A stretch of DNA of 12,618 nucleotides from Candidatus Hydrothermales bacterium (GCA_039630575.1 JBCNUW010000031.1:1-12618); one strand, 5' to 3'; counted from the first letter of the stretch, positions 597-12,618 are shown. Numbers and translations: made by a program. Notes: generated from the sequence alone by a model not told the origin.

Positions 597-911
597 ATGA
601 AAAATTATGTTAAAATAATTTTTATAATATTTGGAATTATCTATTTGTTAGGTTGTGAGGGGCGGGTAAAGATAGGTGATTTACACAAAGAACCCAGGAA
701 GTATGTTGATAAAACAGTAGTGATCAAAGGAAAGGTTATGAAATTATCAAATTTTCCAGTTAGGTCTTTTGAAATAGAAGATGGAACCGGTAAGATTACA
801 GTAATTACCAAAAAGCCGTTACCAAGGGAAGGAGAAACGATAAAAATAAAAGGGAAAGTTAAATATCAAGAGGGATTATTTACACGAGGAATCACAATAG
901 AGGAAGAATAA
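597..911 (+). CDS. Small OB-fold lipoprotein (extracytoplasmic OB fold)
   Basis: Basic N-terminus, hydrophobic stretch and lipobox LLGC (C20). The mature part has the OB-fold pattern KTVVIKGKV...FEIEDGTGKITV...GETIKIKGKV. Confidence 0.75.
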   Translation: MKNYVKIIFIIFGIIYLLGCEGRVKIGDLHKEPRKYVDKTVVIKGKVMKLSNFPVRSFEIEDGTGKITVITKKPLPREGETIKIKGKVKYQEGLFTRGITIEEE

Positions 912-992: not shown

Positions 993-1427
993 ATGGAAGA
1001 ACTAAAAAAATTTTGTGATTTGGTGGAAAGTACTGATTTAAAACTTATTTCAGATTTGAAAAAATTTTTAAGTGAAAATTGCCCTAATTGGAGAAAGATT
1101 GTAAGGGATCCTAACAACTGGGATAAAATTGAAAAACTACAGCCAACTTGCAAATTCGAATCATTTTGTGAAATGATTTTAGAAGAAGCTGGAATAGATC
1201 TTATAGTACGTTGGTTATCTTCTTCGCATAATAGATTAAGAGAATATGCTGCAAAGAAGTTTCTTGATAAGGTAAAGTGGTATGACCCCCTCTCCATTTT
1301 AAATCCACAGCTTTGGGGAAAACTACCGGATGATGCAAAGGAATGGGTTATTTGTGAAATGTTTAAAGAATGGGAAGAGAGACTTAAAAACCTCAGGATA
1401 TATTGCAGGATATATTGGAAAACATAG
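993..1427 (+). CDS. Hypothetical helical protein; probably the N-terminal part of a frameshifted gene continuing in 1403-2371
   Basis: 144-aa ORF with ATG start and the local Lys/Glu-rich composition. It overlaps the next ORF by 25 nt; that ORF lies in the -1 frame. Confidence 0.65.
   Translation: MEELKKFCDLVESTDLKLISDLKKFLSENCPNWRKIVRDPNNWDKIEKLQPTCKFESFCEMILEEAGIDLIVRWLSSSHNRLREYAAKKFLDKVKWYDPLSILNPQLWGKLPDDAKEWVICEMFKEWEERLKNLRIYCRIYWKT
1394..1417 (+). repeat. Perfect 12-bp tandem duplication CAGGATATATTG x2
   Basis: 1394-1405 and 1406-1417 are identical. They encode QDIL-QDIL in the downstream frame and RIYC-RIYW in the upstream frame. Confidence 0.9.
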
Positions 1428-2371
1428 AGTTTGACCGAAGAAAAAAATTTGGTTATTTTTTTGATTATGGTTCTTTATCACTCTTAGGTTACTTATCCTA
1501 TTTATCACAGTATATAAACTCTTTGGTTCAGCCTCATTTTATTTGGCGACTTCAATCAATAGTTGAAAGGGCAGGAGACAAAAAATTTTTAAAAATAATA
1601 AAAGATAAGATTAAGGAGTTTGAAGAAATAGCTAAAAAAATTGAGAATAAAATATTTTCTTTTCCCTCTCCAACTATAACCAGTCGTATTCCTTACACCC
1701 CTAATAAAAATGAAAGAGAACTTATCACACGTGCATTAAATATTTTTAAGAAAAATGGATATCTTTACTCTCCCTTACCTGAAATTTACATTTCTTTAGA
1801 AACTCCTCCTATATTTATTTTTTATCCAGAACTTGAAGAAGAAGTTTTTGAAGAAAGGAAAGAAATTTATGAAGAAAAAAGACCCTGGAAAGAGAGGGAA
1901 AAACCTGAAACAATTTCTATTGAAGACCTTTTAGGATGTTATATTCCAGAGAAGCAAATGATACTTCTATATCAAAGGGGAATAGAGTGGGAGGCTAAAA
2001 AATATCAGATTTCTGAGGAAAGAATTAGAGAAATAGTACTTCTCCATGAGATAGGGCACTGGATAACTCATCTTTTACCTAAACAAGGTGTACCTCCTTG
2101 GCCTCTTGAATTTTACAAATTGACTTCACCAGAGGTTCATGAAGGATGGGCACAACTTATTACATACTGGGTAGTAAAAGATGTAAAGGGAGAATTAGAG
2201 AAAGTTTTTGAAGAAATGGATAAGCATCAACCATCTGAATATCATGTATATAAAGATTTTGCAAATTATAATCAGGACAAAGTGATTTCTTCACTGGAGG
2301 TTTTAAGAAGAATTTCTCGCTCAGTGGAGATTAAAGACTGGGAAAATATTTTAAAATTTGAATTATTCTAA
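1403..2371 (+). CDS. HExxH zinc-metallopeptidase-like protein (gluzincin type), soluble
   Basis: VLLHEIGHWITH (H codons 2045 and 2057) plus downstream HEGWA (E codon 2141, 28 residues after the second His), preceded by a zincin-like LLGCY...ILLY strand pair. No signal peptide. The TTG start is doubtful because the frame is already open from 1388. Confidence 0.75.
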   Translation: MQDILENIEFDRRKKFGYFFDYGSLSLLGYLSYLSQYINSLVQPHFIWRLQSIVERAGDKKFLKIIKDKIKEFEEIAKKIENKIFSFPSPTITSRIPYTPNKNERELITRALNIFKKNGYLYSPLPEIYISLETPPIFIFYPELEEEVFEERKEIYEEKRPWKEREKPETISIEDLLGCYIPEKQMILLYQRGIEWEAKKYQISEERIREIVLLHEIGHWITHLLPKQGVPPWPLEFYKLTSPEVHEGWAQLITYWVVKDVKGELEKVFEEMDKHQPSEYHVYKDFANYNQDKVISSLEVLRRISRSVEIKDWENILKFELF

Positions 2372-3079
2372 AAACAATTTCCTGATCCTGTGAGCATCAT
2401 CAAGTAGTTCTCTTTTTTCTTTCACAACTACTTTGCCATTTTTCATTACAATTACCTCGTCAACTCTTTCTTTTAAGAGTTTTAAATTGTGTTCCACAAC
2501 AAGTATAGTGATATTACTTTCATTTTTTATCTTTGTAATACTTTCTAAGATTGTTGAAGCTGTTGATGGTGCAAGCCCGGCAGTTGGTTCATCAAGCAAA
2601 AGAATATCTTTCCTTTTCATAAGAATCATACTTATTCCCAGGGCCTGTCTTTCACCCCCTGACAATAAGCCTGCTCTTAAATTAAGTTTTTCCTTTAAAA
2701 AAGGAAAATAATTTAAAACCTTTTCAATCCCATCTTTTATCTCTTTTTCTGGGAGCTCAAACCCTGAAAGTTCAAGATTTTCTTTTACACTTAAAATAGG
2801 GAATATATTTTTCACCTGTGTTAAATACCCTATTCCCATATTTATTCTTTTTATTGGTGAAAGATGAGTTATTTCCCTCGTTTTAAAGAATACCTTGCCT
2901 TTAAATGGTTTTAAAAGACCAGCCATTACTTTTATTAATGTTGATTTTCCAGAGCCATTTGGTCCGATAAGAAGTGTAAAGTTTCCCTTTTTTATCTCTA
3001 AATTTACATCAAAAAGAACTTCCCTTTTACCATATCCTGCAGATATTTCCTCTGCTTTTAAAATAACCTCATCTTTCAT
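2363..3079 (-). CDS. livF: Branched-chain amino acid (HAAT) family ABC transporter ATPase, LivF-like
   Basis: ISAGYG start motif, Walker A GPNGSGKST, signature LSGGERQ, Walker B LLLDEPTAGLAP, H-loop VEHN. Confidence 0.93.
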   Translation of the reverse strand: MKDEVILKAEEISAGYGKREVLFDVNLEIKKGNFTLLIGPNGSGKSTLIKVMAGLLKPFKGKVFFKTREITHLSPIKRINMGIGYLTQVKNIFPILSVKENLELSGFELPEKEIKDGIEKVLNYFPFLKEKLNLRAGLLSGGERQALGISMILMKRKDILLLDEPTAGLAPSTASTILESITKIKNESNITILVVEHNLKLLKERVDEVIVMKNGKVVVKEKRELLDDAHRIRKLFLE

Positions 3080-3838
3080 TTAAATACCTACATATATTTC
3101 TCTTACTTCCTTTGCAAAGAGTACATGATCTGATCTTCCAAAGAAAGCAATCTTCCCTTCATTCATAAAATATACCCAATCTGCAAGGTTAAGTATTACA
3201 CTCATGTTATGTTCAATAATAGCAACAGTTTTCTTTTCTTCTTCAATAATTTTTCTAAGTAAATTCTCAATTTTTTTTATCATTTCAGGATAAACTCCTG
3301 CAGTTGGTTCATCTAATAGAAGAACATCATATTTTCCTGCCATTAGTCTTGCAAAGGAAAGAAGTTTTTGTTGTCCAAAAGAAAGTTCAAAGGCATATTT
3401 ATTTTTCTCATTCTCAAGACCTACAAATTCAAGCCAATGCATAGCCTCCTCAGCGTATATATTTTTAATTTTTCTTGTATAAAAAGGATTAGTCCACGCC
3501 CAAAAAGGATTTTCAAATTTTCTTTCTTGTAAAGAAACAATAACATTTTCAAGAACGGATAAGTTTTTAAATATTCTTACATCTTGAAAAAGTCTTCCAA
3601 TCCCTTTTTGTGCAATCTTCCACGGGGATAGTCCTGTTATATCTTCTTCTTCAAGAAAGATTTTACCACTGTCAGGCTTAAGATTGCCGGTTATAAGGTG
3701 AAAGAGTGTTGTTTTTCCAGCACCGTTTGGTCCAATAAATCCTGTAATTCTTGATGGTAGAATACTGAGTGTTACTTCCTTTACAGCCCATAAATCACCG
3801 AAACGCTTACTTACATTAAATAATTTTATCTTTTTCAT
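3080..3838 (-). CDS. livG: HAAT family ABC transporter ATPase, LivG-like
   Basis: VSKRFG, Walker A GPNGAGKTT, GIGRLFQ, LSFGQQK, LLLDEPTAG, IEHNM, C-terminal VREIYVG. Its stop abuts the livF ATG. Confidence 0.93.
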   Translation of the reverse strand: MKKIKLFNVSKRFGDLWAVKEVTLSILPSRITGFIGPNGAGKTTLFHLITGNLKPDSGKIFLEEEDITGLSPWKIAQKGIGRLFQDVRIFKNLSVLENVIVSLQERKFENPFWAWTNPFYTRKIKNIYAEEAMHWLEFVGLENEKNKYAFELSFGQQKLLSFARLMAGKYDVLLLDEPTAGVYPEMIKKIENLLRKIIEEEKKTVAIIEHNMSVILNLADWVYFMNEGKIAFFGRSDHVLFAKEVREIYVGI

Positions 3839-4728
3839 TTTATTTCGTATTCACCAGCAAGCCCGCGTGGTCTTAAAAACATTAAAATAACAAGCAAAAA
3901 ACCATATATAATCTGTCTTACATTTGGTGCAATAGTATCAGGGATTCCCATGAATCTCAGTATTTCTGGCAAAATAATCATAAATATGACACCTGCAAAT
4001 GGACCTTTTATGTTTCCAGAACCACCAATAAGTAAAATACATATATGGAATATGCTTTCCTCAATTGTAAAGGATGTGGGATCAATATAAGTAACATAAG
4101 AAGCATAGAGAGCACCTGCAGCCGAAGTAAATATACCAGTTATAACAAAAGCATAAAGAAAATATCTGAAAACTGATTTACCAAGTGATTCACTAACTTT
4201 TTCGTCCTCTCTCATACTTTTTAAAGCCAGCCCAAAAGGAGAATTATAGAGAATAAAAAGTAAAGAAAGAAAAACAAGGTTTATAAGTAAAATAAGGATC
4301 AGATATTCAAATAAAGAATTTATAGAAAGTTTTAATCCAACTTCTTTAAAAGAGATATTTATTAAAGGTCTTGGAATCGCAGGAATTCCATAAGGTCCCC
4401 TTGTAAGAGAAACCCAATTGTATAAAATTGTAAAAATTATCATTTGAAAGCTGAGTGTTACAATGACAAACATATCCCCTCTAAATCTTAACGCAGGAAT
4501 AGCGATTAAGAATGCAATAATACCTGTTATAATTAAAGAAGCAATTAGTGAAGGTATAAAGGAAAAATTTAAGTGGATTGCTGTTAAGGTATAAACATAT
4601 GCTCCTATACCATAAAAAACTGCATTGGATAGGGAGATGAGTCCACAAAAACCTGTTGTAAGATTAAGAGAGTAGGCAACTATTGAATATATTCCAATCA
4701 TTATTAAAATATGAAGAAGATAGTTCAT
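3835..4728 (-). CDS. livM: HAAT family ABC transporter permease, LivM-like
   Basis: Polytopic membrane protein with SLNLTTGFCGLISL, LRFRGDMF, LTRGPYGI, SPFGLALKSMREDE, IGGSGN, LPEILR and RPRGL motifs. ATGA overlaps with both neighbours. Confidence 0.92.
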   Translation of the reverse strand: MNYLLHILIMIGIYSIVAYSLNLTTGFCGLISLSNAVFYGIGAYVYTLTAIHLNFSFIPSLIASLIITGIIAFLIAIPALRFRGDMFVIVTLSFQMIIFTILYNWVSLTRGPYGIPAIPRPLINISFKEVGLKLSINSLFEYLILILLINLVFLSLLFILYNSPFGLALKSMREDEKVSESLGKSVFRYFLYAFVITGIFTSAAGALYASYVTYIDPTSFTIEESIFHICILLIGGSGNIKGPFAGVIFMIILPEILRFMGIPDTIAPNVRQIIYGFLLVILMFLRPRGLAGEYEIK

Positions 4729-5606
4729 ATTTCCTCAATCCTTTTCTTTGTTCCTATTATTCCCTGTGGTCTTAAAAGGAGTATAAGAATAAGGATTAAA
4801 AATGTAGCAAGTGGTGCCCAGTTTGCAGAAAATTTCCATATAACAAGGCTCTGAATTAAAGCAATAGTAAAGCTTCCTAAAATCCATCCACTTAGTCTAT
4901 CTATCCCCCCAATTATAACTGCAACAACAGAAGTAAGTAAGGCAGGAAGACCCACATGCGGGTTTGTCCCTATGTCAATGACTGTTAAGAGAGAAGAAGT
5001 AAATACAAAAAAAGAACTTATTATAAAGGCAAGTTTTCTTAAATTATAAAAAGGTAAACCAAGGGAAATTAAAAGTTCTGGCTCATCCCCCATCGCCCAT
5101 AGTGCTTTTATTATTTTTGATTTTTTTGCCATTATAGAAAAAATAAGAATAAGAATAAAGCCTATCAAAGCTTGAATAATCTGAATTCTTGTTAGCATAA
5201 TCCCATAAAAAGAATAAGAAGGTTGAACTCCTTCAAGTATTATCTTTATCTCGTTCCCGAAGATAAGAGCTATTAAATTAACAATGATTATATAAATACC
5301 AAGTGAAGCAATAAAAATAACTCCAGAAGATGATTTTTTTTCATAAAAAGGTAAATATACAAATCTTTCAATAAGATAACCAGATACTGAAATAGAAAAT
5401 AAACTTAAAATTAGTGAGATAAAAAAAGGTAATTTTAAAACTTTAAAAAATGTAAAAAAAAGATAAGCTGATAATGTATAAAATCCTGCATAGGCTATAT
5501 GGAAAATCCTTGTAGTTCTATAAACAATTCCGAAACCTATTGCAAGTAAAGAATAAATAATTCCATTTATTAGTCCATTTATAAAAAGTTGAAAAAGGGC
5601 TCCCAT
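4725..5606 (-). CDS. livH: HAAT family ABC transporter permease, LivH-like
   Basis: QLFINGLINGIIYSLLAIGFGIVY...FHIA at the N-terminus, VIIGGI, C-terminal LLLRPQGIIG, multiple TM segments. Confidence 0.92.
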   Translation of the reverse strand: MGALFQLFINGLINGIIYSLLAIGFGIVYRTTRIFHIAYAGFYTLSAYLFFTFFKVLKLPFFISLILSLFSISVSGYLIERFVYLPFYEKKSSSGVIFIASLGIYIIIVNLIALIFGNEIKIILEGVQPSYSFYGIMLTRIQIIQALIGFILILIFSIMAKKSKIIKALWAMGDEPELLISLGLPFYNLRKLAFIISSFFVFTSSLLTVIDIGTNPHVGLPALLTSVVAVIIGGIDRLSGWILGSFTIALIQSLVIWKFSANWAPLATFLILILILLLRPQGIIGTKKRIEEI

Positions 5607-5977
5607 TATTCTTTTAAAAGCTTATTAATCACTTCCATAATTTCTTCAGGATTTAATGGTTTTTTAAGGAAATACTTGGCACCGAGATTAAGCGCCTCAA
5701 CAGCATAATCAAATTCCCTGTAAGCACTCATAACAATAGGTATAGTCTTAAGAGAGTTTTCTTTTATATATCTTACAAGCTTTAAGCCATCCCTGTTTGA
5801 AGGGTCATTTTCATCAAGCCTAATATCAATAATTGCAATATCAATATTCTCTTTATCCAAAATTCCAACACCCTCATTATAACTTCTTGCCTTAAATACT
5901 TTGAACTTAAAAGATAAAATCATTTCAAGAGAGTCAAGATATTCCTCTATATCATCAACTATGAGTATTTTCTTCAT
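5606..5977 (-). CDS. Single-domain response regulator (CheY-like receiver, no output domain)
   Basis: KILIVDD, phosphoacceptor IAIID (D51 counting from the ATG at 5977), IVMSAY, FLKKP. The ORF track starts one codon earlier at a TTG (5980). The stop overlaps the livH start (TAATG). Confidence 0.93.
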   Translation of the reverse strand: MKKILIVDDIEEYLDSLEMILSFKFKVFKARSYNEGVGILDKENIDIAIIDIRLDENDPSNRDGLKLVRYIKENSLKTIPIVMSAYREFDYAVEALNLGAKYFLKKPLNPEEIMEVINKLLKE

Positions 5978-6090
5978 CAATTAATCTTTAATTCTAAAAA
6001 TTTTAGTAATTTCTGAACTCCGCTTTTTTTAAATTCAATTTCCTTTTAGACAAAAATCTATACTATCATAAACAATTAGTATTCTTTCTT

Positions 6091-6543
6091 TCATATTCTG
6101 TGGTGATGATGGGTTGGCTCGTATTTAAGAGCATTCCATATATTTTCAACTTCTTCAAAATCTTTTTCTTTAGGCTTTTCATTATTTATAACTTCTTCAA
6201 TCTTCCTTTTCAAATTGTCAAGATAAAAAGAAATGAAATGTTTATTAGAAATTACTTTAAGTTCTTCTTTGCTACAATCAGGGTGAGAAAGAAAAAAGAC
6301 GAGTACTTTTTTACCGCATTTTTTTGCTGTCCTCCATCCAACTGGATTTTCTGGTTCCTCAGGATTAAAACCTTCTATAATCCACAGTATACTTTTTTTA
6401 ACTATATCTTCAGGGACTATATTAAAATCTTTAAAAGTAAAATAATAAATATCCTCTTTTCTAAAATCAAAAACATAGATAAAAAATCTTAATAAAGCAA
6501 GTGCAAGTTCTTTGCTTCCTACTAAAATCAGGATATTATTCAT
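6091..6543 (-). CDS. Hypothetical protein; probable degenerate receiver (pseudo-REC) fold with C-terminal HHHH
   Basis: NILILVGSKELALALLRFF matches REC beta1-alpha1. ILWIIEGFNPEEPENPVGWRTAK parallels DIAIIDIRLDENDPSNRDGLKLVR of the neighbouring receiver. KVLVFF is a beta4 equivalent. The fold assignment is by eye. Confidence 0.6.
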   Translation of the reverse strand: MNNILILVGSKELALALLRFFIYVFDFRKEDIYYFTFKDFNIVPEDIVKKSILWIIEGFNPEEPENPVGWRTAKKCGKKVLVFFLSHPDCSKEELKVISNKHFISFYLDNLKRKIEEVINNEKPKEKDFEEVENIWNALKYEPTHHHHRI

Positions 6544-6551
6544 AGAGTTAA

Positions 6552-6581
6552 ATTTTAAACAATATAAAAATATAAAATCAA
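6552..6581 (-). promoter_or_regulatory. Putative sigma70-type promoter for the leftward operon (leaderless or near-leaderless)
   Basis: Minus strand: TTGATT (6581-6576), 18 nt, TAAAAT (6557-6552), then 8 nt to the ATG at 6543. No Shine-Dalgarno. Confidence 0.5.
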
Positions 6582-6630
6582 TTGTGATATCTTCATCCCA
6601 AATTATTGGTTTAATTTTCTAAAAGTTTAA

Positions 6631-6660
6631 TTGAAATTATGGAGTGTAAAAGTGTAAAAT
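6631..6660 (+). promoter_or_regulatory. Putative sigma70-type promoter for the rightward operon, overlapped by an AGTGTAAA tandem repeat
   Basis: TTGAAA (6631-6636), 18 nt, TAAAAT (6655-6660). AGTGTAAA occurs at 6643-6650 and 6651-6658. Confidence 0.55.
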
Positions 6661-6674
6661 CAAAAACATTAAAA

Positions 6675-6681
6675 AGGAGGT
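6675..6681 (+). promoter_or_regulatory. Strong Shine-Dalgarno for the binding-protein gene
   Basis: AGGAGGT, 8 nt before the ATG at 6690. Confidence 0.85.
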
Positions 6682-6689
6682 AAAAATCA

Positions 6690-7811
6690 ATGAATAAACG
6701 AAGTCTGTGGATTATTATTGGTGGAGTAATTATCGCAATTCTTGTGATTGTAGGCATATTGATAACACAAAAGCCAACACCGAAGGAAAAGGTTGTCAAA
6801 ATAGGTGCTGTTTTGCCGTTGACAGGTGCAGCAGCTGATATTGGTCAAAAGGCTAAACGTGGGCTTGAAATTGCTGAAAAAGAACTCAAGATAAAAGTGA
6901 TTTATGAAGACTCTGGAAGCGATCCAAAGCAAGGTTTATCAGCTTTCCGAAAGCTTATTACCACTGAGCGTGACCTTGTTGGAGTTATCTCTATGTTAAG
7001 CGGTGTAGGTAATGCAATTATACCTATTGCTGAGACAGAAAAGGTTGTGACATTGCATATTGCTTCTGCTCCTGAGATGGTAACTGGTAAAAAGTTTTCT
7101 TTCAGATGGTATATTACATCTAAAGAACAAATGAAGGCTGTAGTCAAATATCTCCATCAGCAAAATGTCTCTGAGAAATCGCGTATTGCTTTCCTTTTTA
7201 TTAATGACGAGTATGGTAGAGGTGCATTAAAGGAGTTTACAGAAAGTTTCAAGGAGCAATTTGGTGTAGAACCCAATTTAGTTAGTGAAGCTTATGAAAA
7301 GGAGCAAACAGATTTCAAAAATATACTTGTTAAGTTAAAGACCTTTAACCCAGAGATTCTTGCAATAGTTGGTTATAACAAAAGTCTTGGTATATTATTA
7401 AAGCAAATGCGTGAACAAAAAATTGAACCAAGAATTTTAACAGGTGATGATGCAATTTCCTATCCAGAAATTCTTCAAGTTGCAGGTAATGCAGCAGATG
7501 GATTTGTTTTTCCGGGTTTACCACTTGAACCAAAGGAAGGAGAACAAGTTTCACAATTTTTCCAAATTTATAAAGAACAATTTAATGAACCTGTAAGTGA
7601 TTTTGCTTTGTTTGCCTATGGAATGGCTCATATGTTTTACCACTGTGTTATTAATGGAGCAAAAACATCAGAGGAAATTGCTAATTGTCTTGAGACAAAT
7701 GTCTTCAGTACTCCGATAGGTGAAGTTAGCTTTAACCGTGAAACCCATGATGGAAATGTACCACTTCGTATGAAAGAGATCAAAGGAGGCGAGGTTATTG
7801 AGCATAAGTAA
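6690..7811 (+). CDS. LivK/LivJ-type (type I periplasmic binding fold) ABC substrate-binding protein with N-terminal membrane anchor; ligand unknown
   Basis: VKIGAVLPLTGAAADIG, VIYEDSGSDPKQG, FSFR, NDEYGRG, TDFKNIL and GEVSF motifs. N-terminal hydrophobic helix with no lipobox Cys. Confidence 0.9.
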   Translation: MNKRSLWIIIGGVIIAILVIVGILITQKPTPKEKVVKIGAVLPLTGAAADIGQKAKRGLEIAEKELKIKVIYEDSGSDPKQGLSAFRKLITTERDLVGVISMLSGVGNAIIPIAETEKVVTLHIASAPEMVTGKKFSFRWYITSKEQMKAVVKYLHQQNVSEKSRIAFLFINDEYGRGALKEFTESFKEQFGVEPNLVSEAYEKEQTDFKNILVKLKTFNPEILAIVGYNKSLGILLKQMREQKIEPRILTGDDAISYPEILQVAGNAADGFVFPGLPLEPKEGEQVSQFFQIYKEQFNEPVSDFALFAYGMAHMFYHCVINGAKTSEEIANCLETNVFSTPIGEVSFNRETHDGNVPLRMKEIKGGEVIEHK

Positions 7812-8937
7812 AGATACCGATACAAACCCCTTTTATGTGATTGCTTATAGGACACCTTTATGGAGAGTAAAGGAGCTTTCAGTATCAAATGTTAAATATG
7901 ACCATATATTATCCCCTGTTCTCCAGTTCTTAGAGAATTTCACTTCTCTGGATTTACAAGTTAGGCAAATGCTTTTTAGTAACTGCTTTTCACAAGAAAT
8001 GATAAGAAGTTATTCATTTAGAAGAATCCTCTGTAATTATCCTAATATTTCTAACAGGCTTCGGACAGCAAACATATGCTATATTGATAACTCATGTCTT
8101 TCTGCTTTCACTGGTCTTTTGCTAAGTTATTCATATACCCTTGGAGTTAAAGAGATAGATATTTATATTGGATATGAAGATTTAGGATGCGGGAGAGAGC
8201 AATTACTTAATGCAGCTAAAACTTCGCCAGAGCAATTAAAGGTAGAAGATATATGCAGAGAGATTGCTAAAAAGTATTCAATTTCTCATGATATGGCACA
8301 AAAATATATCAAGGAGCAAGTTAAAATAAAAAACAATTCTTTTGAAATTATTTTTTCCCATATTTTGGACAATTATCATAATACAAATAAAACTTCAACT
8401 GCAGTAGATACCTTAGATACAGAAAATTTAATTCAAGAAACAAACTTTAAGACTGATCTTGGACATCCGCCTTATCTTGCTCGTTTTTCAAAAGGTGCAG
8501 GAGTTATCATATGTACTTCTGACCTTGAATTAGCTAAGCAATATAATGGGCTTTGTGTTCATTCTATAGCATGCTATTCTAATATTGGTAATCCTATAGA
8601 GAATTCTCATATTCTTCAGTCAATGGAGCTTGCTCTAAGTAAAGCAAACCTCTCTTGGCATGATATCTCTGCATTTGAAATTTACGATGGGTTTTTAGTA
8701 TTAACTCTCTCAGTAATAAAAGTACTTCAAAGCAAACTTAAGTTAAAGGCTTTTGAGCGTATCAACATTTTAGGTAATGCAATAGTCCGTGGTGATCCTG
8801 TTTCAGCAGTTGGAATATTAATGTTAACAAATGCAGAAAGCGCATTTAATTCCAATATGATTCCTAATAATGCTTATATGTTGATTACTGGATACTCTAC
8901 TACTATTGCGATATCACTTGTTGTATCTAAAGTTTAG
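7798..8937 (+). CDS. Divergent thiolase-fold enzyme with a non-canonical active site
   Basis: Thiolase landmarks occur in order: YRTPL, IDNSCLSA (C100, nucleophile position), IGYEDL, AKKYSISH, GAGVIICTS, ALSKANLSWHDISAFEIYDGF, INILGNAIVRGDPVSAVG. TTG start with AGGAGG (7784-7789) 8 nt upstream. Confidence 0.78.
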   Translation: MSISKDTDTNPFYVIAYRTPLWRVKELSVSNVKYDHILSPVLQFLENFTSLDLQVRQMLFSNCFSQEMIRSYSFRRILCNYPNISNRLRTANICYIDNSCLSAFTGLLLSYSYTLGVKEIDIYIGYEDLGCGREQLLNAAKTSPEQLKVEDICREIAKKYSISHDMAQKYIKEQVKIKNNSFEIIFSHILDNYHNTNKTSTAVDTLDTENLIQETNFKTDLGHPPYLARFSKGAGVIICTSDLELAKQYNGLCVHSIACYSNIGNPIENSHILQSMELALSKANLSWHDISAFEIYDGFLVLTLSVIKVLQSKLKLKAFERINILGNAIVRGDPVSAVGILMLTNAESAFNSNMIPNNAYMLITGYSTTIAISLVVSKV

Positions 8938-8949
8938 GGAGTGTAAAGA

Positions 8950-9834
8950 ATGGAATATACCATAGCAAAGAAGAAATACCTTAAAGACTGGGATGATTGG
9001 AACAGAGTTGCAGTTAAGATTTACTACGAGTCAAAGACACAAGATGCAATTGTTGAGGTAGAAAATCTTATAAGTATCATATCCAATTTCTTTGAGTTTA
9101 AGCAAAAAATTTATGATATGCGGATTCTTGATGTAGGGGCAGGATGGGGCAGACATACATTAGAGCTTTATAAACGGGGTTTTAAGAAAATTTTAGCTAT
9201 AGATTCGTCTCCTCTAATGAAGAAACTTTTTGAGAGAGAGTTAAGTAAAGTAACAGTTGATCCAGGCATTCCAATACCAAGTTATATTCAAGACGATTTT
9301 ATGAACTTAAAGACAGATGATGAATTTGATTTAATTCTTGTGTTATGGTCTATGTTTGGCACTTGTGATAACGATGAGGAAAATTTTGCATTTTTAAAAA
9401 AGAGTGCTGAGGTTTTAAAGTGTGGTGGTAGGTTAGTGATAGAGACTATCTTATGGGATAGATTATGTAAGCTTTTTGATTGTTTTATTAATGTAAATTC
9501 AGTTTTTACCTTTGATGTACCATCTTCTCAAATTAGGCATTGGGAGAAGCGGTATTGGGATGGGCAAGAGTGGTTAATTCTTGGGGCTATGTCATTGAGT
9601 GAAAAAGAGAAAGTTTTGAGGTATTCTCTTTTTGAGTGGGTTATATCAGATTCTCAATTGGTGGTAGAGAGTAGTGGAGCGAGTGGAACGATTAGTCTGA
9701 GATATTACGAGTTAAGAGAGTTAATAGGGATGCTTTCAGATGCAGGCTTTATTATAGAGAGAGTTTACGGACCCTTACTAAACCCAGAGAATTTTTATGA
9801 TACACGTATAACTATGATTGCAAAGAAGTTGTGA
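8950..9834 (+). CDS. Class I SAM-dependent methyltransferase, small-molecule type
   Basis: Motif I ILDVGAGWGRH, LAIDSS, IQDDF, FDLILVLWSMFG, LKCGGRLVIE, and a C-terminal LRYY..RELIGMLSDAGF...VYG segment. SD AGGGAG upstream. Confidence 0.92.
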   Translation: MEYTIAKKKYLKDWDDWNRVAVKIYYESKTQDAIVEVENLISIISNFFEFKQKIYDMRILDVGAGWGRHTLELYKRGFKKILAIDSSPLMKKLFERELSKVTVDPGIPIPSYIQDDFMNLKTDDEFDLILVLWSMFGTCDNDEENFAFLKKSAEVLKCGGRLVIETILWDRLCKLFDCFINVNSVFTFDVPSSQIRHWEKRYWDGQEWLILGAMSLSEKEKVLRYSLFEWVISDSQLVVESSGASGTISLRYYELRELIGMLSDAGFIIERVYGPLLNPENFYDTRITMIAKKL

Positions 9835-9847
9835 AGTGGATTATAAT
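9818..9847 (+). promoter_or_regulatory. Putative internal promoter for the kinase-like gene
   Basis: TTGCAA (9818-9823, inside the methyltransferase 3' end), 18 nt, perfect TATAAT (9842-9847). SD AGGGAG at 9878-9883 precedes the ATG at 9891. Confidence 0.6.
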
Positions 9848-9890
9848 AAATTTTAATCTTTTGATAATTTTTTAAACAGGGAGTTTACAA

Positions 9891-12494
9891 ATGGGAATTT
9901 TTAAATTCCCTAAAGAGAGAGCTGAGCTTACCTCATTTTACAAAAAAGTATGCGAACGGAGTGATGAAGAGAAAGATCTATTTTATCTTTTGAACAATAA
10001 AATTATACCCGAACTCTTTAAAAGGTCTTCTATTGAAATTCGATCCGTTACTTTTACTTCCTATATTGGTGGTAGAAAATACTATCTTATAGATTGGCCA
10101 TTTAAGTGGTATTATCCTGTGCTTGATAAATGGTTGATTGAGAACAAGTTAGATATTCTTACTTCTTTGCATTTTAATAAAGATTTAGATGTTGGTTGGT
10201 TGTTTTTCTCATATATTTTCAAACGACATCAAGAGCGTACTAATTATCAAGTAAGTATAGAAGTGCCTTCACTAATACAAAAGCATGTTAGCCGTTCCCT
10301 TTACAAATTCCATGAGATAGCTACCTTAAACGATGAAAGATGGAAATGTTTGGCTCTTCTCTTTCATCTTATGGCTTTTGATGAGCATTTTATGAGTGAA
10401 GAACCGATTCATTTATTAATTGTTTCTCAAAAAACAAAAATAATGGAAGAACCTGGGGCAGTGACGGTTACTTTAAAACTTGCAGATCCAAATGTTATTA
10501 TTGAATCTTTAGCTGATAAGATAATTGAAACTGTGCTTCCCATTATTACTAAGCGTTTGCAGGGAGTAGTCAGTCATGTATTATTTCTTGAAAAGGCATT
10601 ACATTCTGCTGTTGCTGCTATTATGGCAAGAAATTTTTCTCATTTATGGGGATCTAATTTATTAGAAGTAGCTAAATCTGAGGTGGATGAATATATAAAT
10701 TTATTATCATTGTTATTATCAGAAAAAAATAAAATTATAAAAGAATTAGAGAATGATCTTATAAAATCCAAGGATGAATTTGAAAAATTAAAAAATGTGC
10801 TAAGTTATATTGCTGGTCGTTCTGAACTTATAGCGAATACTACAGCTTATTTACCTATAAATTGGGGAGAAGGATTTTTACAGCAAACACTGAGGAATCA
10901 TAATCTTAAAGAGGGAGTATTGCGGGATGTGGACTGGTCTAGTGCACGCAAGCTACTAGAAAAATTAGGTAGAAACCAAATTAAAGAATTTATTATTGAT
11001 GAAAAATTAGAAAATATAAGTTTTGGTTTTCCTTACGGAAGGTATGTGGGTAGACACGCACTTTATATTATATTAGAAGATTACATAAGAAATATACAAA
11101 AACATGGGTATATTAATGAATCCCCATTAAAAGTGTATCTTCAATTAGGTGAAGATAAAGAAGGGTATGTAGTAGTCAAATTAACATCAAATTCTAAAAT
11201 TGCCTCTTCATCTGAGGAATATGAAAATAAAGCAAATTTTCTTCAAAATATAATGAATCAACCTTTCATAAATCCTGATTCCTCCCCAAATGAAGTAGGA
11301 TGGGGATTTAAAGAAATGATGATATGCGCATTCCTTTTAGCAGGTTTACCTATAGAAAAGTTAGACGAAATGGACTTAAGAAATAAAGTTTTTAGTTTTC
11401 TATATGATGAAGCAAAAAAAGACGGGTTTTATTCTTTTCAATTTATATTAAGAAAGATGAAATTAATAAGAGAATTTAAGAATAAAGATGATATTTCTTC
11501 CTATATAACCTCCGAAGAAATAAAGCCTCTATTAAAATCAGTGCTTATCCATCCAGATTTATTTGACTTGTACGCTGAGAATTGGCATATTTTCCCTTTA
11601 ATGATAGGAATAAAAAAAGGAAATAAAAATATGCCTCAAAATTTAAACAAAAAAGATTATTTTAAAAAATGGCTAAAAAAACGCATAGTAGAGGTAGAAG
11701 AAATTAAATATGAAGAGGTACTTTATAAAGTAGTGGAAAAATTAGGACTTAATAAAGAGACGATTTGGATTAAGGATGCGAGAAGAGAAATAGATAAAAA
11801 AATTCCGTGTAATAATCAAGGATACAACTGGGGACTCTATCATCAAAAGAGTGACAAAGATCAAATGGAAAAAAAATGCCAAAATTATTTTGGGTTTAGT
11901 GGCTATGGCGCTATGTTAGGTATAATTCGAAAAATAATTAATAATGAACCAGGTATTGAAGAAGAATTAAAATTAATCTTAGGTAGTAAGATTCTTATAA
12001 TTGATGATAGGATTTATAAGAAAGTAAAAGAAAAAGAAGAAAGAGAAAAAAAAGAAAGAGAAGAAGAAAAAGAGGAGGAAAAAGAAAAAGAAGGGTATCT
12101 AAAAGAACTTGAAAAGATAGGAATATATGTTTTTCCCGAAAGTGGAACTGAAATAAATATTGAAAGTAATGATGACCTCAGAATCCAAAATATAAATATT
12201 TACAAAAATAAAGAGCTTTACCTTAAAAACTTTCATTTTATGAGTATCCATTTAACTTATCTAAAAAATAAATATGATACTTATAAAAAAGAGTTTCCAT
12301 TATTTAAAGTGGAAAATTTGGAAAAATGTCCCACTTACATATTTGTTCATACTGGTAGAGGCGGTGCTTCAGAAGTAATTTCAGAATATCCTTGGTTCCA
12401 AAAAGTGATTTCTTATCACAATATCTCTTCTGCTTTTAGCACTGATTATGTATTTAACACAAAAATTTTATTAATTGAATCTTTTTATTTTTAA
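9891..12494 (+). CDS. Soluble atypical histidine-kinase-like (GHKL ATPase) protein with an unassigned N-terminal region and a degenerate C-terminal receiver-like domain
   Basis: H-box-like helix AAIMARNFSHLWGS (H251) followed by a helical hairpin. N-box ILEDYIRNIQKHG (N401), F-box-like MNQPF, G2-like GWGFKEM (G470-G472), closing strand FSFQFIL-like. C-terminal KILIIDDR (700-707)...FMSIH...IFVHTGRG. No TM helix is evident. Confidence 0.7.
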   Translation: MGIFKFPKERAELTSFYKKVCERSDEEKDLFYLLNNKIIPELFKRSSIEIRSVTFTSYIGGRKYYLIDWPFKWYYPVLDKWLIENKLDILTSLHFNKDLDVGWLFFSYIFKRHQERTNYQVSIEVPSLIQKHVSRSLYKFHEIATLNDERWKCLALLFHLMAFDEHFMSEEPIHLLIVSQKTKIMEEPGAVTVTLKLADPNVIIESLADKIIETVLPIITKRLQGVVSHVLFLEKALHSAVAAIMARNFSHLWGSNLLEVAKSEVDEYINLLSLLLSEKNKIIKELENDLIKSKDEFEKLKNVLSYIAGRSELIANTTAYLPINWGEGFLQQTLRNHNLKEGVLRDVDWSSARKLLEKLGRNQIKEFIIDEKLENISFGFPYGRYVGRHALYIILEDYIRNIQKHGYINESPLKVYLQLGEDKEGYVVVKLTSNSKIASSSEEYENKANFLQNIMNQPFINPDSSPNEVGWGFKEMMICAFLLAGLPIEKLDEMDLRNKVFSFLYDEAKKDGFYSFQFILRKMKLIREFKNKDDISSYITSEEIKPLLKSVLIHPDLFDLYAENWHIFPLMIGIKKGNKNMPQNLNKKDYFKKWLKKRIVEVEEIKYEEVLYKVVEKLGLNKETIWIKDARREIDKKIPCNNQGYNWGLYHQKSDKDQMEKKCQNYFGFSGYGAMLGIIRKIINNEPGIEEELKLILGSKILIIDDRIYKKVKEKEEREKKEREEEKEEEKEKEGYLKELEKIGIYVFPESGTEINIESNDDLRIQNINIYKNKELYLKNFHFMSIHLTYLKNKYDTYKKEFPLFKVENLEKCPTYIFVHTGRGGASEVISEYPWFQKVISYHNISSAFSTDYVFNTKILLIESFYF
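12026..12095 (+). repeat. 70-nt purine-only low-complexity tract encoding a Glu/Lys/Arg run
   Basis: Only A and G from 12026 to 12095, including A8 at 12046-12053. Encodes KEKEEREKKEREEEKEEEKEKEG. Confidence 0.9.
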
Positions 12495-12508
12495 GTGGAG
12501 GAAAGATT

Positions 12509-12618
12509 ATGATTTATTTATATTTTACTCCTCGAGAAAGAAAAAATTGTAAAGGTATTCAAACTCAAATAAATAATAAAAATATATGTATATCTTATCA
12601 ACAAAAAAATGACGATAT
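12509..12618 (+). CDS. 5' part of the next gene in the operon, truncated by the window edge
   Basis: GGAGG at 12497-12501, ATG at 12509, open to the window end: MIYLYFTPRERKNCKGIQTQINNKNICISYQQKNDD. It starts 14 nt after the kinase stop. Confidence 0.75.
   Translation, partial: MIYLYFTPRERKNCKGIQTQINNKNICISYQQKNDD

What the first reader, a model, noticed from the sequence alone, without database searches (positions are those of the whole stretch)
2363..12618. Candidate undescribed make/import/sense system: small-molecule enzymes, Liv-type ABC importer, soluble atypical kinase and multiple receivers
Seen: back-to-back operons separated by a 146-nt gap. Left: pseudo-receiver, receiver, livHMGF. 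Right: binding protein, remodelled thiolase, methyltransferase, 867-aa kinase-like protein, another ORF. The binding protein is detached from its permeases and coupled to the enzymes instead. The kinase has no TM helix, so it would sense an intracellular cue. No DNA-binding regulator is visible in the window. Knowledge: ordinary liv operons do not carry a methyltransferase, an altered thiolase and phosphorelay parts; import-then-sense logic is known from Lsr/AI-2 and Opp/Phr-Rap. Inference: the enzymes make or modify an acylated/methylated metabolite, the ABC system imports it and the kinase N-terminus detects it, as in quorum or kin signalling. An alternative is uptake and detoxification or catabolism of an external compound.
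Basis: partly seen in the sequence, partly recalled or inferred. Interest (0 to 1): 0.85.

Follow-up and report, generated by a model that had tools for sequence, protein, structure and literature searches.

The report
Swappable enzyme-importer-kinase signalling cassette
This bacterial gene cluster looks like an undescribed chemical signalling system: small-molecule enzymes, the capture protein of an importer and the sensing domain of a kinase are exchanged between genomes as one block, which suggests many private chemical signals plugged into one shared relay.

Summary
The 867-aa protein folds as a soluble GAF-like + histidine-kinase protein and matches no Pfam, NCBIfam or PADLOC family. The linkage test passes: an ABC binding protein (SBP) lies upstream of the kinase in 51 of 51 assessable related loci and in 8 of 8 loci found independently by profile search.

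New result: the SBP body, the enzymes and the kinase's GAF domain form one exchangeable cassette (about 6828-10595 here). Its ends are two conserved coding motifs. Backbones 90-99% identical carry unrelated cassettes, and one cassette turns up on different backbones. SBP sequence tracks enzyme type (24/26 nearest neighbours); the kinase core does not (0/23). The window's own cassette has foreign codon usage.

Best reading (0.55): a self-made small-molecule signal is imported and sensed in the cytoplasm, like Bacillus comQXP pherotypes but non-peptide. Main rival (0.25): import, modify, then sense a foreign molecule. No ligand, export route or kinase activity is shown. The thiolase-fold protein lacks two catalytic residues, and the contig ends before the output genes. 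Ten literature searches found no description.

The parts
2363..3079 (-). LivF-like ABC ATPase (backbone)
   Evidence: PF00005 1.4e-31; LivF model 1.7e-44
3080..3838 (-). LivG-like ABC ATPase (backbone)
   Evidence: LivG model 4.7e-59
3835..4728 (-). LivM-like permease of a system-associated subgroup (backbone)
   Evidence: PF02653 8.3e-44; top similarity tier (51-64%) holds all 4 other kinase-bearing genomes of the phylum
4725..5606 (-). LivH-like permease (backbone)
   Evidence: PF02653 7.2e-19
5606..5980 (-). Single-domain receiver with intact acidic pocket, D51, Ser and Lys; 44-61% identical to stand-alone receivers in most related loci
   Evidence: PF00072 3.6e-20; alignment; identities
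6091..6543 (-). Pseudo-receiver: receiver fold, invariant Glu57 at the phospho-Asp position, His-rich tail
   Evidence: TM 0.60-0.64 to response regulators; E57 invariant in 11 of 11 aligned; profile-profile match to the true receiver not significant
6690..7811 (+). Liv/HAAT-type substrate-binding protein with N-terminal membrane anchor; the first ~46 codons are the left exchange arm, the rest belongs to the cassette
   Evidence: PF13458 4.8e-39; PDB relatives; arm position
6828..10595 (+). Inferred exchangeable specificity cassette: SBP body + thiolase-fold + methyltransferase + GAF-like sensor
   Evidence: Ends inferred from breakpoints in related loci; CGN-Arg use 21/47 against 7/69 in the backbone, p=4e-5
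7798..8937 (+). Thiolase-fold protein; catalytic His replaced by Asp and C-terminal catalytic Cys absent; first Cys probably kept (C100, by motif only); no homolog found
   Evidence: Thiolase_C 3.5e-6; alignment to FadA; only itself among 2787 candidates
8950..9834 (+). Class I SAM methyltransferase with intact motif I; nearest characterised relatives include N-methyltransferases
   Evidence: 3 close homologs at 45-60%
9891..12494 (+). Soluble unclassified histidine-kinase-fold protein: GAF-like domain (16-233), DHp with H251, ATPase domain (~320-525), C-terminal alpha/beta domains; Ser in place of the G1-box Asp
   Evidence: Model pLDDT 76.7; Foldseek; VIA-align Z 9.7 to a kinase domain, Z 8.0 to LasR LBD over residues 28-232; 225 family representatives
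12509..12618 (+). Start of a gene cut by the contig end; by position probably the conserved partner (alpha/beta domain + four-helix bundle) that follows the kinase in 43 of 56 related loci
   Evidence: Translation; tally; no significant sequence match over 36 codons

Best explanation
A polymorphic, non-peptide, import-and-sense signalling locus. A stable backbone (Liv permeases and ATPases, kinase core, partner protein, receivers, variable outputs) accepts an exchangeable cassette running from just inside the SBP gene to just before the kinase H-box. The cassette enzymes make a small molecule from primary metabolites; here probably a methylated amino-acid-like or acyl compound. It leaves the cell by a route not encoded in the locus. 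The matching SBP captures it, the generic permeases import it, and the matching GAF domain switches the kinase and its receiver relay. Only cells with the same cassette respond. Shown: gene content, fold, linkage, cassette exchange, co-variation. Inferred: ligand, synthesis, export, phosphotransfer, social role.
For: Linkage: SBP upstream in 51 of 51 assessable loci and in 8 of 8 profile-found genome loci. Exchange: 33 of 41 locus pairs that align over the kinase core begin 17-41 nt before the H-box Arg codon; 40 of 56 left-arm alignments end within -2 to +6 nt of the SBP LTG motif; 6 pairs share only the upstream cassette part. Co-variation: nearest neighbour has the same enzyme type for SBP 24/26, GAF 16/24, kinase core 0/23; SBP tree needs 5 label changes (the minimum), core tree 12 (shuffled 11.5); pocket residues are type-specific. 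SBP and GAF lie on opposite sides of the membrane, so a transported molecule is the simplest link (inference). Slot enzymes include GTP cyclohydrolase I + PTPS, HMGL-like synthases, an aminomutase-like and other radical SAM enzymes, mostly with intact motifs. The window is itself a mosaic.
Against: No exporter was recognised among the Pfam-annotated neighbours. 2 of 47 Liv-type loci (L005, L013) have no enzyme. Some slot proteins look degenerate: this thiolase, two PALP proteins with Tyr for the PLP Lys, and a prenyl synthase lacking the first Asp-rich motif. In 13 loci the enzyme is fused to the sensor, which fits handing over a product better than broadcasting it. Block inheritance alone also produces co-variation. 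The window's kinase has Ser at the G1 Asp.
Confidence: 0.55

Rival explanations
1. Import, modify, sense: the SBP captures a foreign compound (a competitor's toxin or signal), the cassette enzyme converts or detoxifies it, and the GAF domain reads the product and turns on defence or dormancy outputs. This is Lsr-like logic used for surveillance.
For: Enzyme-sensor fusions in 13 loci; no exporter seen; enzyme-less alleles. Outputs in relatives include an adenosine deaminase matching PADLOC CARF_ADA at 1e-82, HD-CE, TCAD9-deaminase, vWA/tubulin-like genes and caspase-like domains. Restriction and resolvase genes lie nearby in L122 and L120.
Against: GTP cyclohydrolase I + PTPS and HMGL-type synthases start from intracellular primary metabolites (established enzymology) rather than modifying an import. 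No PADLOC match for the kinase, partner or pseudo-receiver. Other outputs are ordinary sigma-54 activators and a PP2C phosphatase.
Confidence: 0.25
2. Enzyme as co-sensor or decoy: the slot proteins are repurposed metabolite-binding modules that touch the GAF domain and report an imported ligand, or damage to a housekeeping enzyme class, without making a signal.
For: Degenerate active sites in this thiolase, two PALP proteins and one prenyl synthase; many slot proteins are diverged copies of core metabolic enzymes; frequent fusion to the kinase.
Against: 18 of 20 radical SAM proteins examined show the full CxxxCxxC motif (the other two ORF calls begin inside it), and HMGL and GTP cyclohydrolase motifs are intact. 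Two-step pathways recur (MTase + HMGL in 5 loci, PTPS + GCH-I in 2).
Confidence: 0.12
3. Nutrient uptake and catabolism with a dedicated two-component regulator.
For: The window's SBP keeps Ser/Ser/Tyr/Asp at positions used for amino-acid binding in LivJ-type proteins (numbering recalled). It is the only Liv system in this genome.
Against: The slot is dominated by SAM-consuming and biosynthetic enzymes, not hydrolases or catabolic series. Distribution is sporadic: kinase in 5 of 272 genomes of the phylum and 0 of 10 closest relatives. Fixed-end cassette exchange is not expected of catabolic operons (inference).
Confidence: 0.08

Closest known systems
Bacillus comQXPA pherotype locus (PMC4008528, passages read); Staphylococcus agr (recalled)
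   Same: Signal-making enzyme and the sensor end of a histidine kinase vary together while the kinase core is conserved, giving private channels.
   Different: No peptide precursor and no membrane sensor; the sensor is a cytoplasmic GAF-like domain, an importer SBP is part of the variable block, and more than ten unrelated enzyme classes fill the slot.
Lsr/AI-2 and Opp with Phr-Rap/RRNPP import-then-sense systems (recalled)
   Same: ABC import followed by cytoplasmic sensing; an enzyme is encoded with the importer.
   Different: The receptor is a kinase relay, not a repressor or TPR protein; specificity is polymorphic; four importer classes are used across the family (Liv, Opp, polar amino acid, NMT1-type).
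livKHMGF branched-chain amino-acid importer
   Same: All five transporter components are present.
   Different: All score below the NCBIfam cut-offs; the SBP is split from the permeases and swaps with enzymes; the LivM belongs to a system-linked similarity tier.
Soluble GAF/PAS histidine kinases (phytochrome, HWE and HisKA_2 types; NifL)
   Same: GAF-like + DHp + ATPase fold; ESM Atlas features nearest to HWE/HisKA_2 kinases at 0.88, a lead only.
   Different: No HisKA, HWE or HATPase_c profile hit; own motifs RNxxH, ENxxRN and WGxxEM; long C-terminal extension.
Ternary conflict systems with receiver and vWA effectors (PMC7159879, PMC8195603; passages read)
   Same: Relatives carry TCAD9, iREC, HD-CE, vWA and tubulin-like genes nearby.
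   Different: Those papers' passages describe receivers acting without histidine kinases and mention no SBP or importer link.

Membership tests
Histidine kinase superfamily | DHp helices with conserved His followed by a GHKL ATPase domain | tested here: met
   H251 invariant in 40 of 40 aligned; fold matches HK853, RetS, CckA at Z 8.9-9.7
Histidine kinase superfamily | Canonical N, G1 and G2 boxes | tested here: inconclusive
   N401 and G472 conserved; the family's G1 DN is SN here
Histidine kinase superfamily | Autophosphorylation and transfer to a receiver Asp | not testable with these tools
   needs a biochemical assay
comQXPA/agr pherotype loci | Co-varying synthase and sensor domain on a conserved kinase core | tested here: met
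comQXPA/agr pherotype loci | Membrane-embedded sensor domain | tested here: not met
   maximum hydropathy 1.44; only 5 of 132 family N-termini exceed 1.9
comQXPA/agr pherotype loci | Peptide precursor gene and its processing enzyme | tested here: inconclusive
   No ComQ- or AgrB-type hit in the window; gaps between cassette genes are at most 56 nt; ORFs under 60 aa were not listed
comQXPA/agr pherotype loci | A secreted self-made signal activates only cognate strains | not testable with these tools
   needs cultures or reconstitution
Lsr/AI-2 | LsrK kinase, LsrR repressor, sugar-type SBP LsrB | tested here: not met
   No such hits in the window; the SBP is Peripla_BP_6
Canonical LIV importer | SBP, two permeases and two ATPases of HAAT type | tested here: met
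Canonical LIV importer | Binds Leu/Ile/Val | not testable with these tools
   Pocket residues partly LivJ-like here, type-specific elsewhere
Thiolase (EC 2.3.1.9/16) | Cys-His-Cys catalytic set | tested here: not met
   GDPVSA aligns with GHPLGC/GHPIGA and no C-terminal Cys is present
PADLOC defence systems | Core proteins match a system's models | tested here: not met
   0 hits for kinase, partner and pseudo-receiver; generic hits only for the MTase and receiver

The most novel reading that the evidence does not exclude
A widespread, open-ended 'chemical barcode' system. Any small biosynthetic module can be slotted, with its matching binding protein and GAF receptor, between two conserved coding arms. 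This gives kin-restricted small-molecule signals, which in many hosts gate immune-type outputs such as ATP deamination, nucleotide hydrolysis or membrane effectors: a kin-limited alarm or quorum-gated defence.
Probability: 0.3. Interest if true: 0.95.

Novelty: categorically new. Interest (0 to 1): 0.82.

Why it matters
Known pherotype systems use peptides or one class of lipid signal. Here the locus layout pairs each unknown small molecule with its maker, its transporter and its receptor, across more than ten enzyme classes and several phyla. That gives a direct route to new signal molecules and to matched biosensor parts, and a test of whether uncultured bacteria use kin-specific chemistry to control defence. 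It also implies that near-identical ABC permeases can work with binding proteins only about 30% identical.

Tried and rejected
Literature: ten searches found no description of this system, including a search for the family motif. The library is open-access only, and no supplements were read; the large supplementary neighbourhood tables of conflict-system papers could list these loci.

Sequence searches that found nothing useful: kinase against PDB sequences, plasmids (no match) and PADLOC. Viral contigs gave 1 locus, so a phage-borne system is not indicated.

The partner protein's fold gave only generic four-helix-bundle matches and a weak KaiA match; a phosphotransfer (HPt) role is not shown.

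No partner or output gene was found elsewhere in the assembly, and read contigs did not extend the right end. No RNA holder was listed.

A site-specific recombination site at the cassette ends was rejected because third codon positions vary freely. No meaningful repeats in the window; promoter-like hits were 9 against 5.2 +/- 1.9 in shuffles.

Split kinase genes in 27 of 68 loci were checked as possible artefacts. Most of the 23 junction sets printed show an overlapping or closely following start at a domain boundary, so they look like real fissions; L005 has an in-frame stop and L066 looks like a frameshift.

Complex prediction for MTase with the GAF domain was not available, so direct contact is untested.

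Full report
OBSERVATION. The window is the whole of contig C25 of a 1.89-Mb, 94.7% complete genome. Two operons diverge across 146 nt. Leftward are a 150-aa protein, a 124-aa receiver and livH/M/G/F. Rightward are a Liv-type substrate-binding protein (SBP), a thiolase-fold protein, a SAM methyltransferase, an 867-aa protein and about 36 codons of a gene cut by the contig end. The 150-aa protein has a receiver fold (TM 0.60-0.64) with an invariant Glu at the phospho-Asp position, so it is a pseudo-receiver. The thiolase-fold protein has Asp for the catalytic His and lacks the C-terminal Cys (catalytic roles recalled). It had no homolog among 2787 candidates.

THE KINASE. It has no Pfam, NCBIfam or PADLOC family. 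An AlphaFold model (pLDDT 76.7; residues 113-166 poor) matches histidine kinases (Z 8.9-9.7). Residues 16-233 match GAF-like folds: LasR ligand domain Z 8.0, CepR2 and NifA GAF Z 7.2. These are middling scores that show a fold, not a ligand. There is no TM helix here, and only 5 of 132 family N-termini reach hydropathy 1.9. The family has 225 representatives at E<=0.001; 142 of 152 retrieved proteins carry RNxxH and 147 carry E[ND]xxRN. H251 is invariant. The G1-box Asp of the family is Ser in this subfamily, so activity needs testing.

DISTRIBUTION. The kinase was not found in 40 relatives, and LivM was not found in the 10 genomes of the same genus, family and order. In the phylum, 5 of 272 genomes have the kinase; in a Bacteroidota-centred sample, 5 of 401. 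Named records include Planctomycetia, Prolixibacteraceae, Thiohalophilus, Bacteroidia and Ca. Kuenenia. LivM matches fall into tiers. The top tier (51-64% identity, 9 other genomes) holds all 4 kinase genomes; 4 of the other 5 show a receiver, pseudo-receiver, SBP or output gene on short contigs, and 1 shows none. None of the 17 lower-tier loci fetched (10 of 10 middle tier, 7 bottom tier) had the kinase.

LINKAGE. I examined 68 loci; about six are near-duplicates. Seventeen are cut off upstream. All 51 others have an SBP upstream: 47 Liv-type, 3 Opp-type, 1 polar-amino-acid type (my tally). In the Opp and polar loci permeases lie between SBP and kinase, so their layout differs. Of the 47 Liv loci, 45 have an enzyme between SBP and H-box, as a separate gene or fused to the kinase (13 fusions seen); L005 and L013 have none. 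The metagenome scan used the H-box-arm motif, so that motif's conservation there is by construction. The 8 loci found by profile search are free of that bias, and all 8 show SBP-enzyme-kinase; one uses an NMT1-type importer. Slot enzymes include many methyltransferases, radical SAM proteins (HemN-, SPASM-, BATS-, B12- and aminomutase-like), HMGL-like synthases, isopropylmalate-dehydrogenase-like proteins, PTPS with or without GTP cyclohydrolase I, PALP, ICMT, GNAT, and AlaRS-like, citrate-lyase-like and prenyl-synthase-like proteins. Most motifs are intact, but two PALP proteins lack the PLP Lys and the prenyl synthase lacks its first Asp motif (motifs recalled). A conserved partner follows the kinase in 43 of 56 loci with a downstream gene.

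THE CASSETTE. Loci with nearly the same backbone carry unrelated middles. L043 and L053 are 99.5% identical from just before the H-box onward, yet have 35% identical SBPs, unrelated GAF regions and different enzymes. L013/L029, L040/L043, L063/L068, L058/L069 and L050/L051 behave alike. Over all pairs, 41 align across the H-box and at least 500 nt beyond. Of these, 33 start 17-41 nt before the H-box Arg codon, 2 are cut by a contig end, and 6 are 98-100% duplicates. Of 56 left-arm alignments, 40 end within -2 to +6 nt of the SBP's LTG motif. Six pairs share only the part upstream of the H-box; L010/L031 are 93.8% identical over 3.5 kb of cassette on different kinase cores. The pairs are not independent. 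For loci grouped by enzyme type, the nearest neighbour had the same type for SBP in 24 of 26, GAF in 16 of 24 and kinase core in 0 of 23 (permutation p 0.0005, 0.0005, 0.98). On trees of 18 labelled loci plus the window, enzyme type needs 5 changes on the SBP tree (the minimum) and 12 on the core tree (shuffled mean 11.5). Several core rows are long branches, partly because split genes were joined. SBP pocket residues are type-specific. Third codon positions in both arms vary, so exchange is probably by homology in conserved coding motifs.

THE WINDOW AS AN ALLELE. Its GAF domain is closest to P0012 (33%, E 2e-38), whose core is only 28% identical. Its core is closest to P0005 and P0006 (39%, 37%), which show no GAF match. 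Cassette genes use CGN for 21 of 47 Arg codons, against 7 of 69 in the backbone and 5% genome-wide (p=4e-5); their codon adaptation is 0.63-0.69 against 0.70-0.75. The MTase has three close homologs. One, P0159, has the same longest-contig length (7717) and source as P0012, which hints at, but does not show, the same MTase-GAF pair elsewhere. The inferred cassette is about 6828-10595.

OUTPUTS. They are unseen here. Relatives carry sigma-54 activators (Pfam-confirmed in L002, L090, L091, L092, L119), a PP2C phosphatase, multi-receiver proteins, an adenosine deaminase with intact motifs (10 of 68 loci; PADLOC CARF_ADA 1e-82 for the one tested), HD-CE, TCAD9-deaminase and vWA/tubulin-like neighbours.

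MECHANISM. The exchanged block holds the three parts expected to touch a ligand: an extracellular SBP, cytoplasmic enzymes and a cytoplasmic GAF domain. The permeases and kinase core stay. The simplest reading is one molecule shared by all three (inference). Several enzyme sets start from primary metabolites, which favours a self-made signal (0.55). Fusions, enzyme-less alleles, the missing exporter and defence-type outputs keep import-modify-sense of a foreign compound alive (0.25). Degenerate enzymes, including this thiolase, support a co-sensor reading (0.12). Plain nutrition is unlikely (0.08).

COMPARISON. It works like comQXPA, where the N-terminal sensor of ComP varies against a conserved cytoplasmic domain and defines pherotypes (PMC4008528, passages read). 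It also resembles Lsr- or Opp-type import-then-sense systems (recalled). It is a member of neither: there is no membrane sensor, no LsrK or LsrR, and the kinase family is unclassified. Passages of two conflict-system papers (PMC8195603, PMC7159879) describe kinase-independent receivers only. Ten searches found no description; other papers were seen only as listings, and no supplements were read. Three earlier scan notes describe what looks like the same family in other genomes, and one mentions swapped ligand-contacting parts. They are unchecked AI notes, not support; the exchange was measured here independently.

VERDICT. Real, recurrent and apparently undescribed. The architecture is strongly supported; the chemistry and direction of signalling are inferred. 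Interest 0.82.

Noticed in passing
L067:4309-12428: Two sensor+H-box half-genes with different enzymes sit in tandem before one C-terminal kinase half, as if two cassettes share one catalytic core.
   Followed up: partly
27 of 68 loci, e.g. L049, L040, L014: The kinase gene is split at recurring points: after the H-box helix, after the DHp, or after the ATPase domain, mostly with overlapping stop and start.
   Followed up: partly
window 6091-6110 (-): The pseudo-receiver ends in a His-rich tail that is kept in most homologs; possible metal binding.
   Followed up: no
window 597-911 and G000:C89:67804-68118: An OB-fold membrane protein gene has an 86% identical paralog elsewhere in the genome; read depth over 1-840 is higher than over the rest.
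   Followed up: no
window 1403-2371 (+): 322-aa protein with an HExxH zincin-like motif; partial DNA matches in 2 of 4 same-genus genomes; its stop overlaps the livF stop.
   Followed up: partly
L042:13385-15265 (+) and 9 other loci: Unannotated ~620-aa downstream protein with receiver-like motifs and C-terminal hydrophobic helices, possibly a membrane effector.
   Followed up: partly
L002:9487-11523 and L090:4431-6425: Dihydroorotate-dehydrogenase-like + ferredoxin + Maf fusion downstream of the kinase.
   Followed up: no
L098, L103, L104, L105, L106: A second tier of Liv loci lacks the kinase but has enzymes beside the SBP or lies next to defence genes (Pycsar-like, NotI-like, AbiE).
   Followed up: partly
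L121:8898-12245 (+): Kinase with an N-terminal SLOG-like domain, beside an NMT1-type importer and a methyltransferase; suggests a nucleobase-type ligand.
   Followed up: no
window 12016-12094: Low-complexity Glu/Lys insert in the kinase C-terminal region, absent from close homologs.
   Followed up: no
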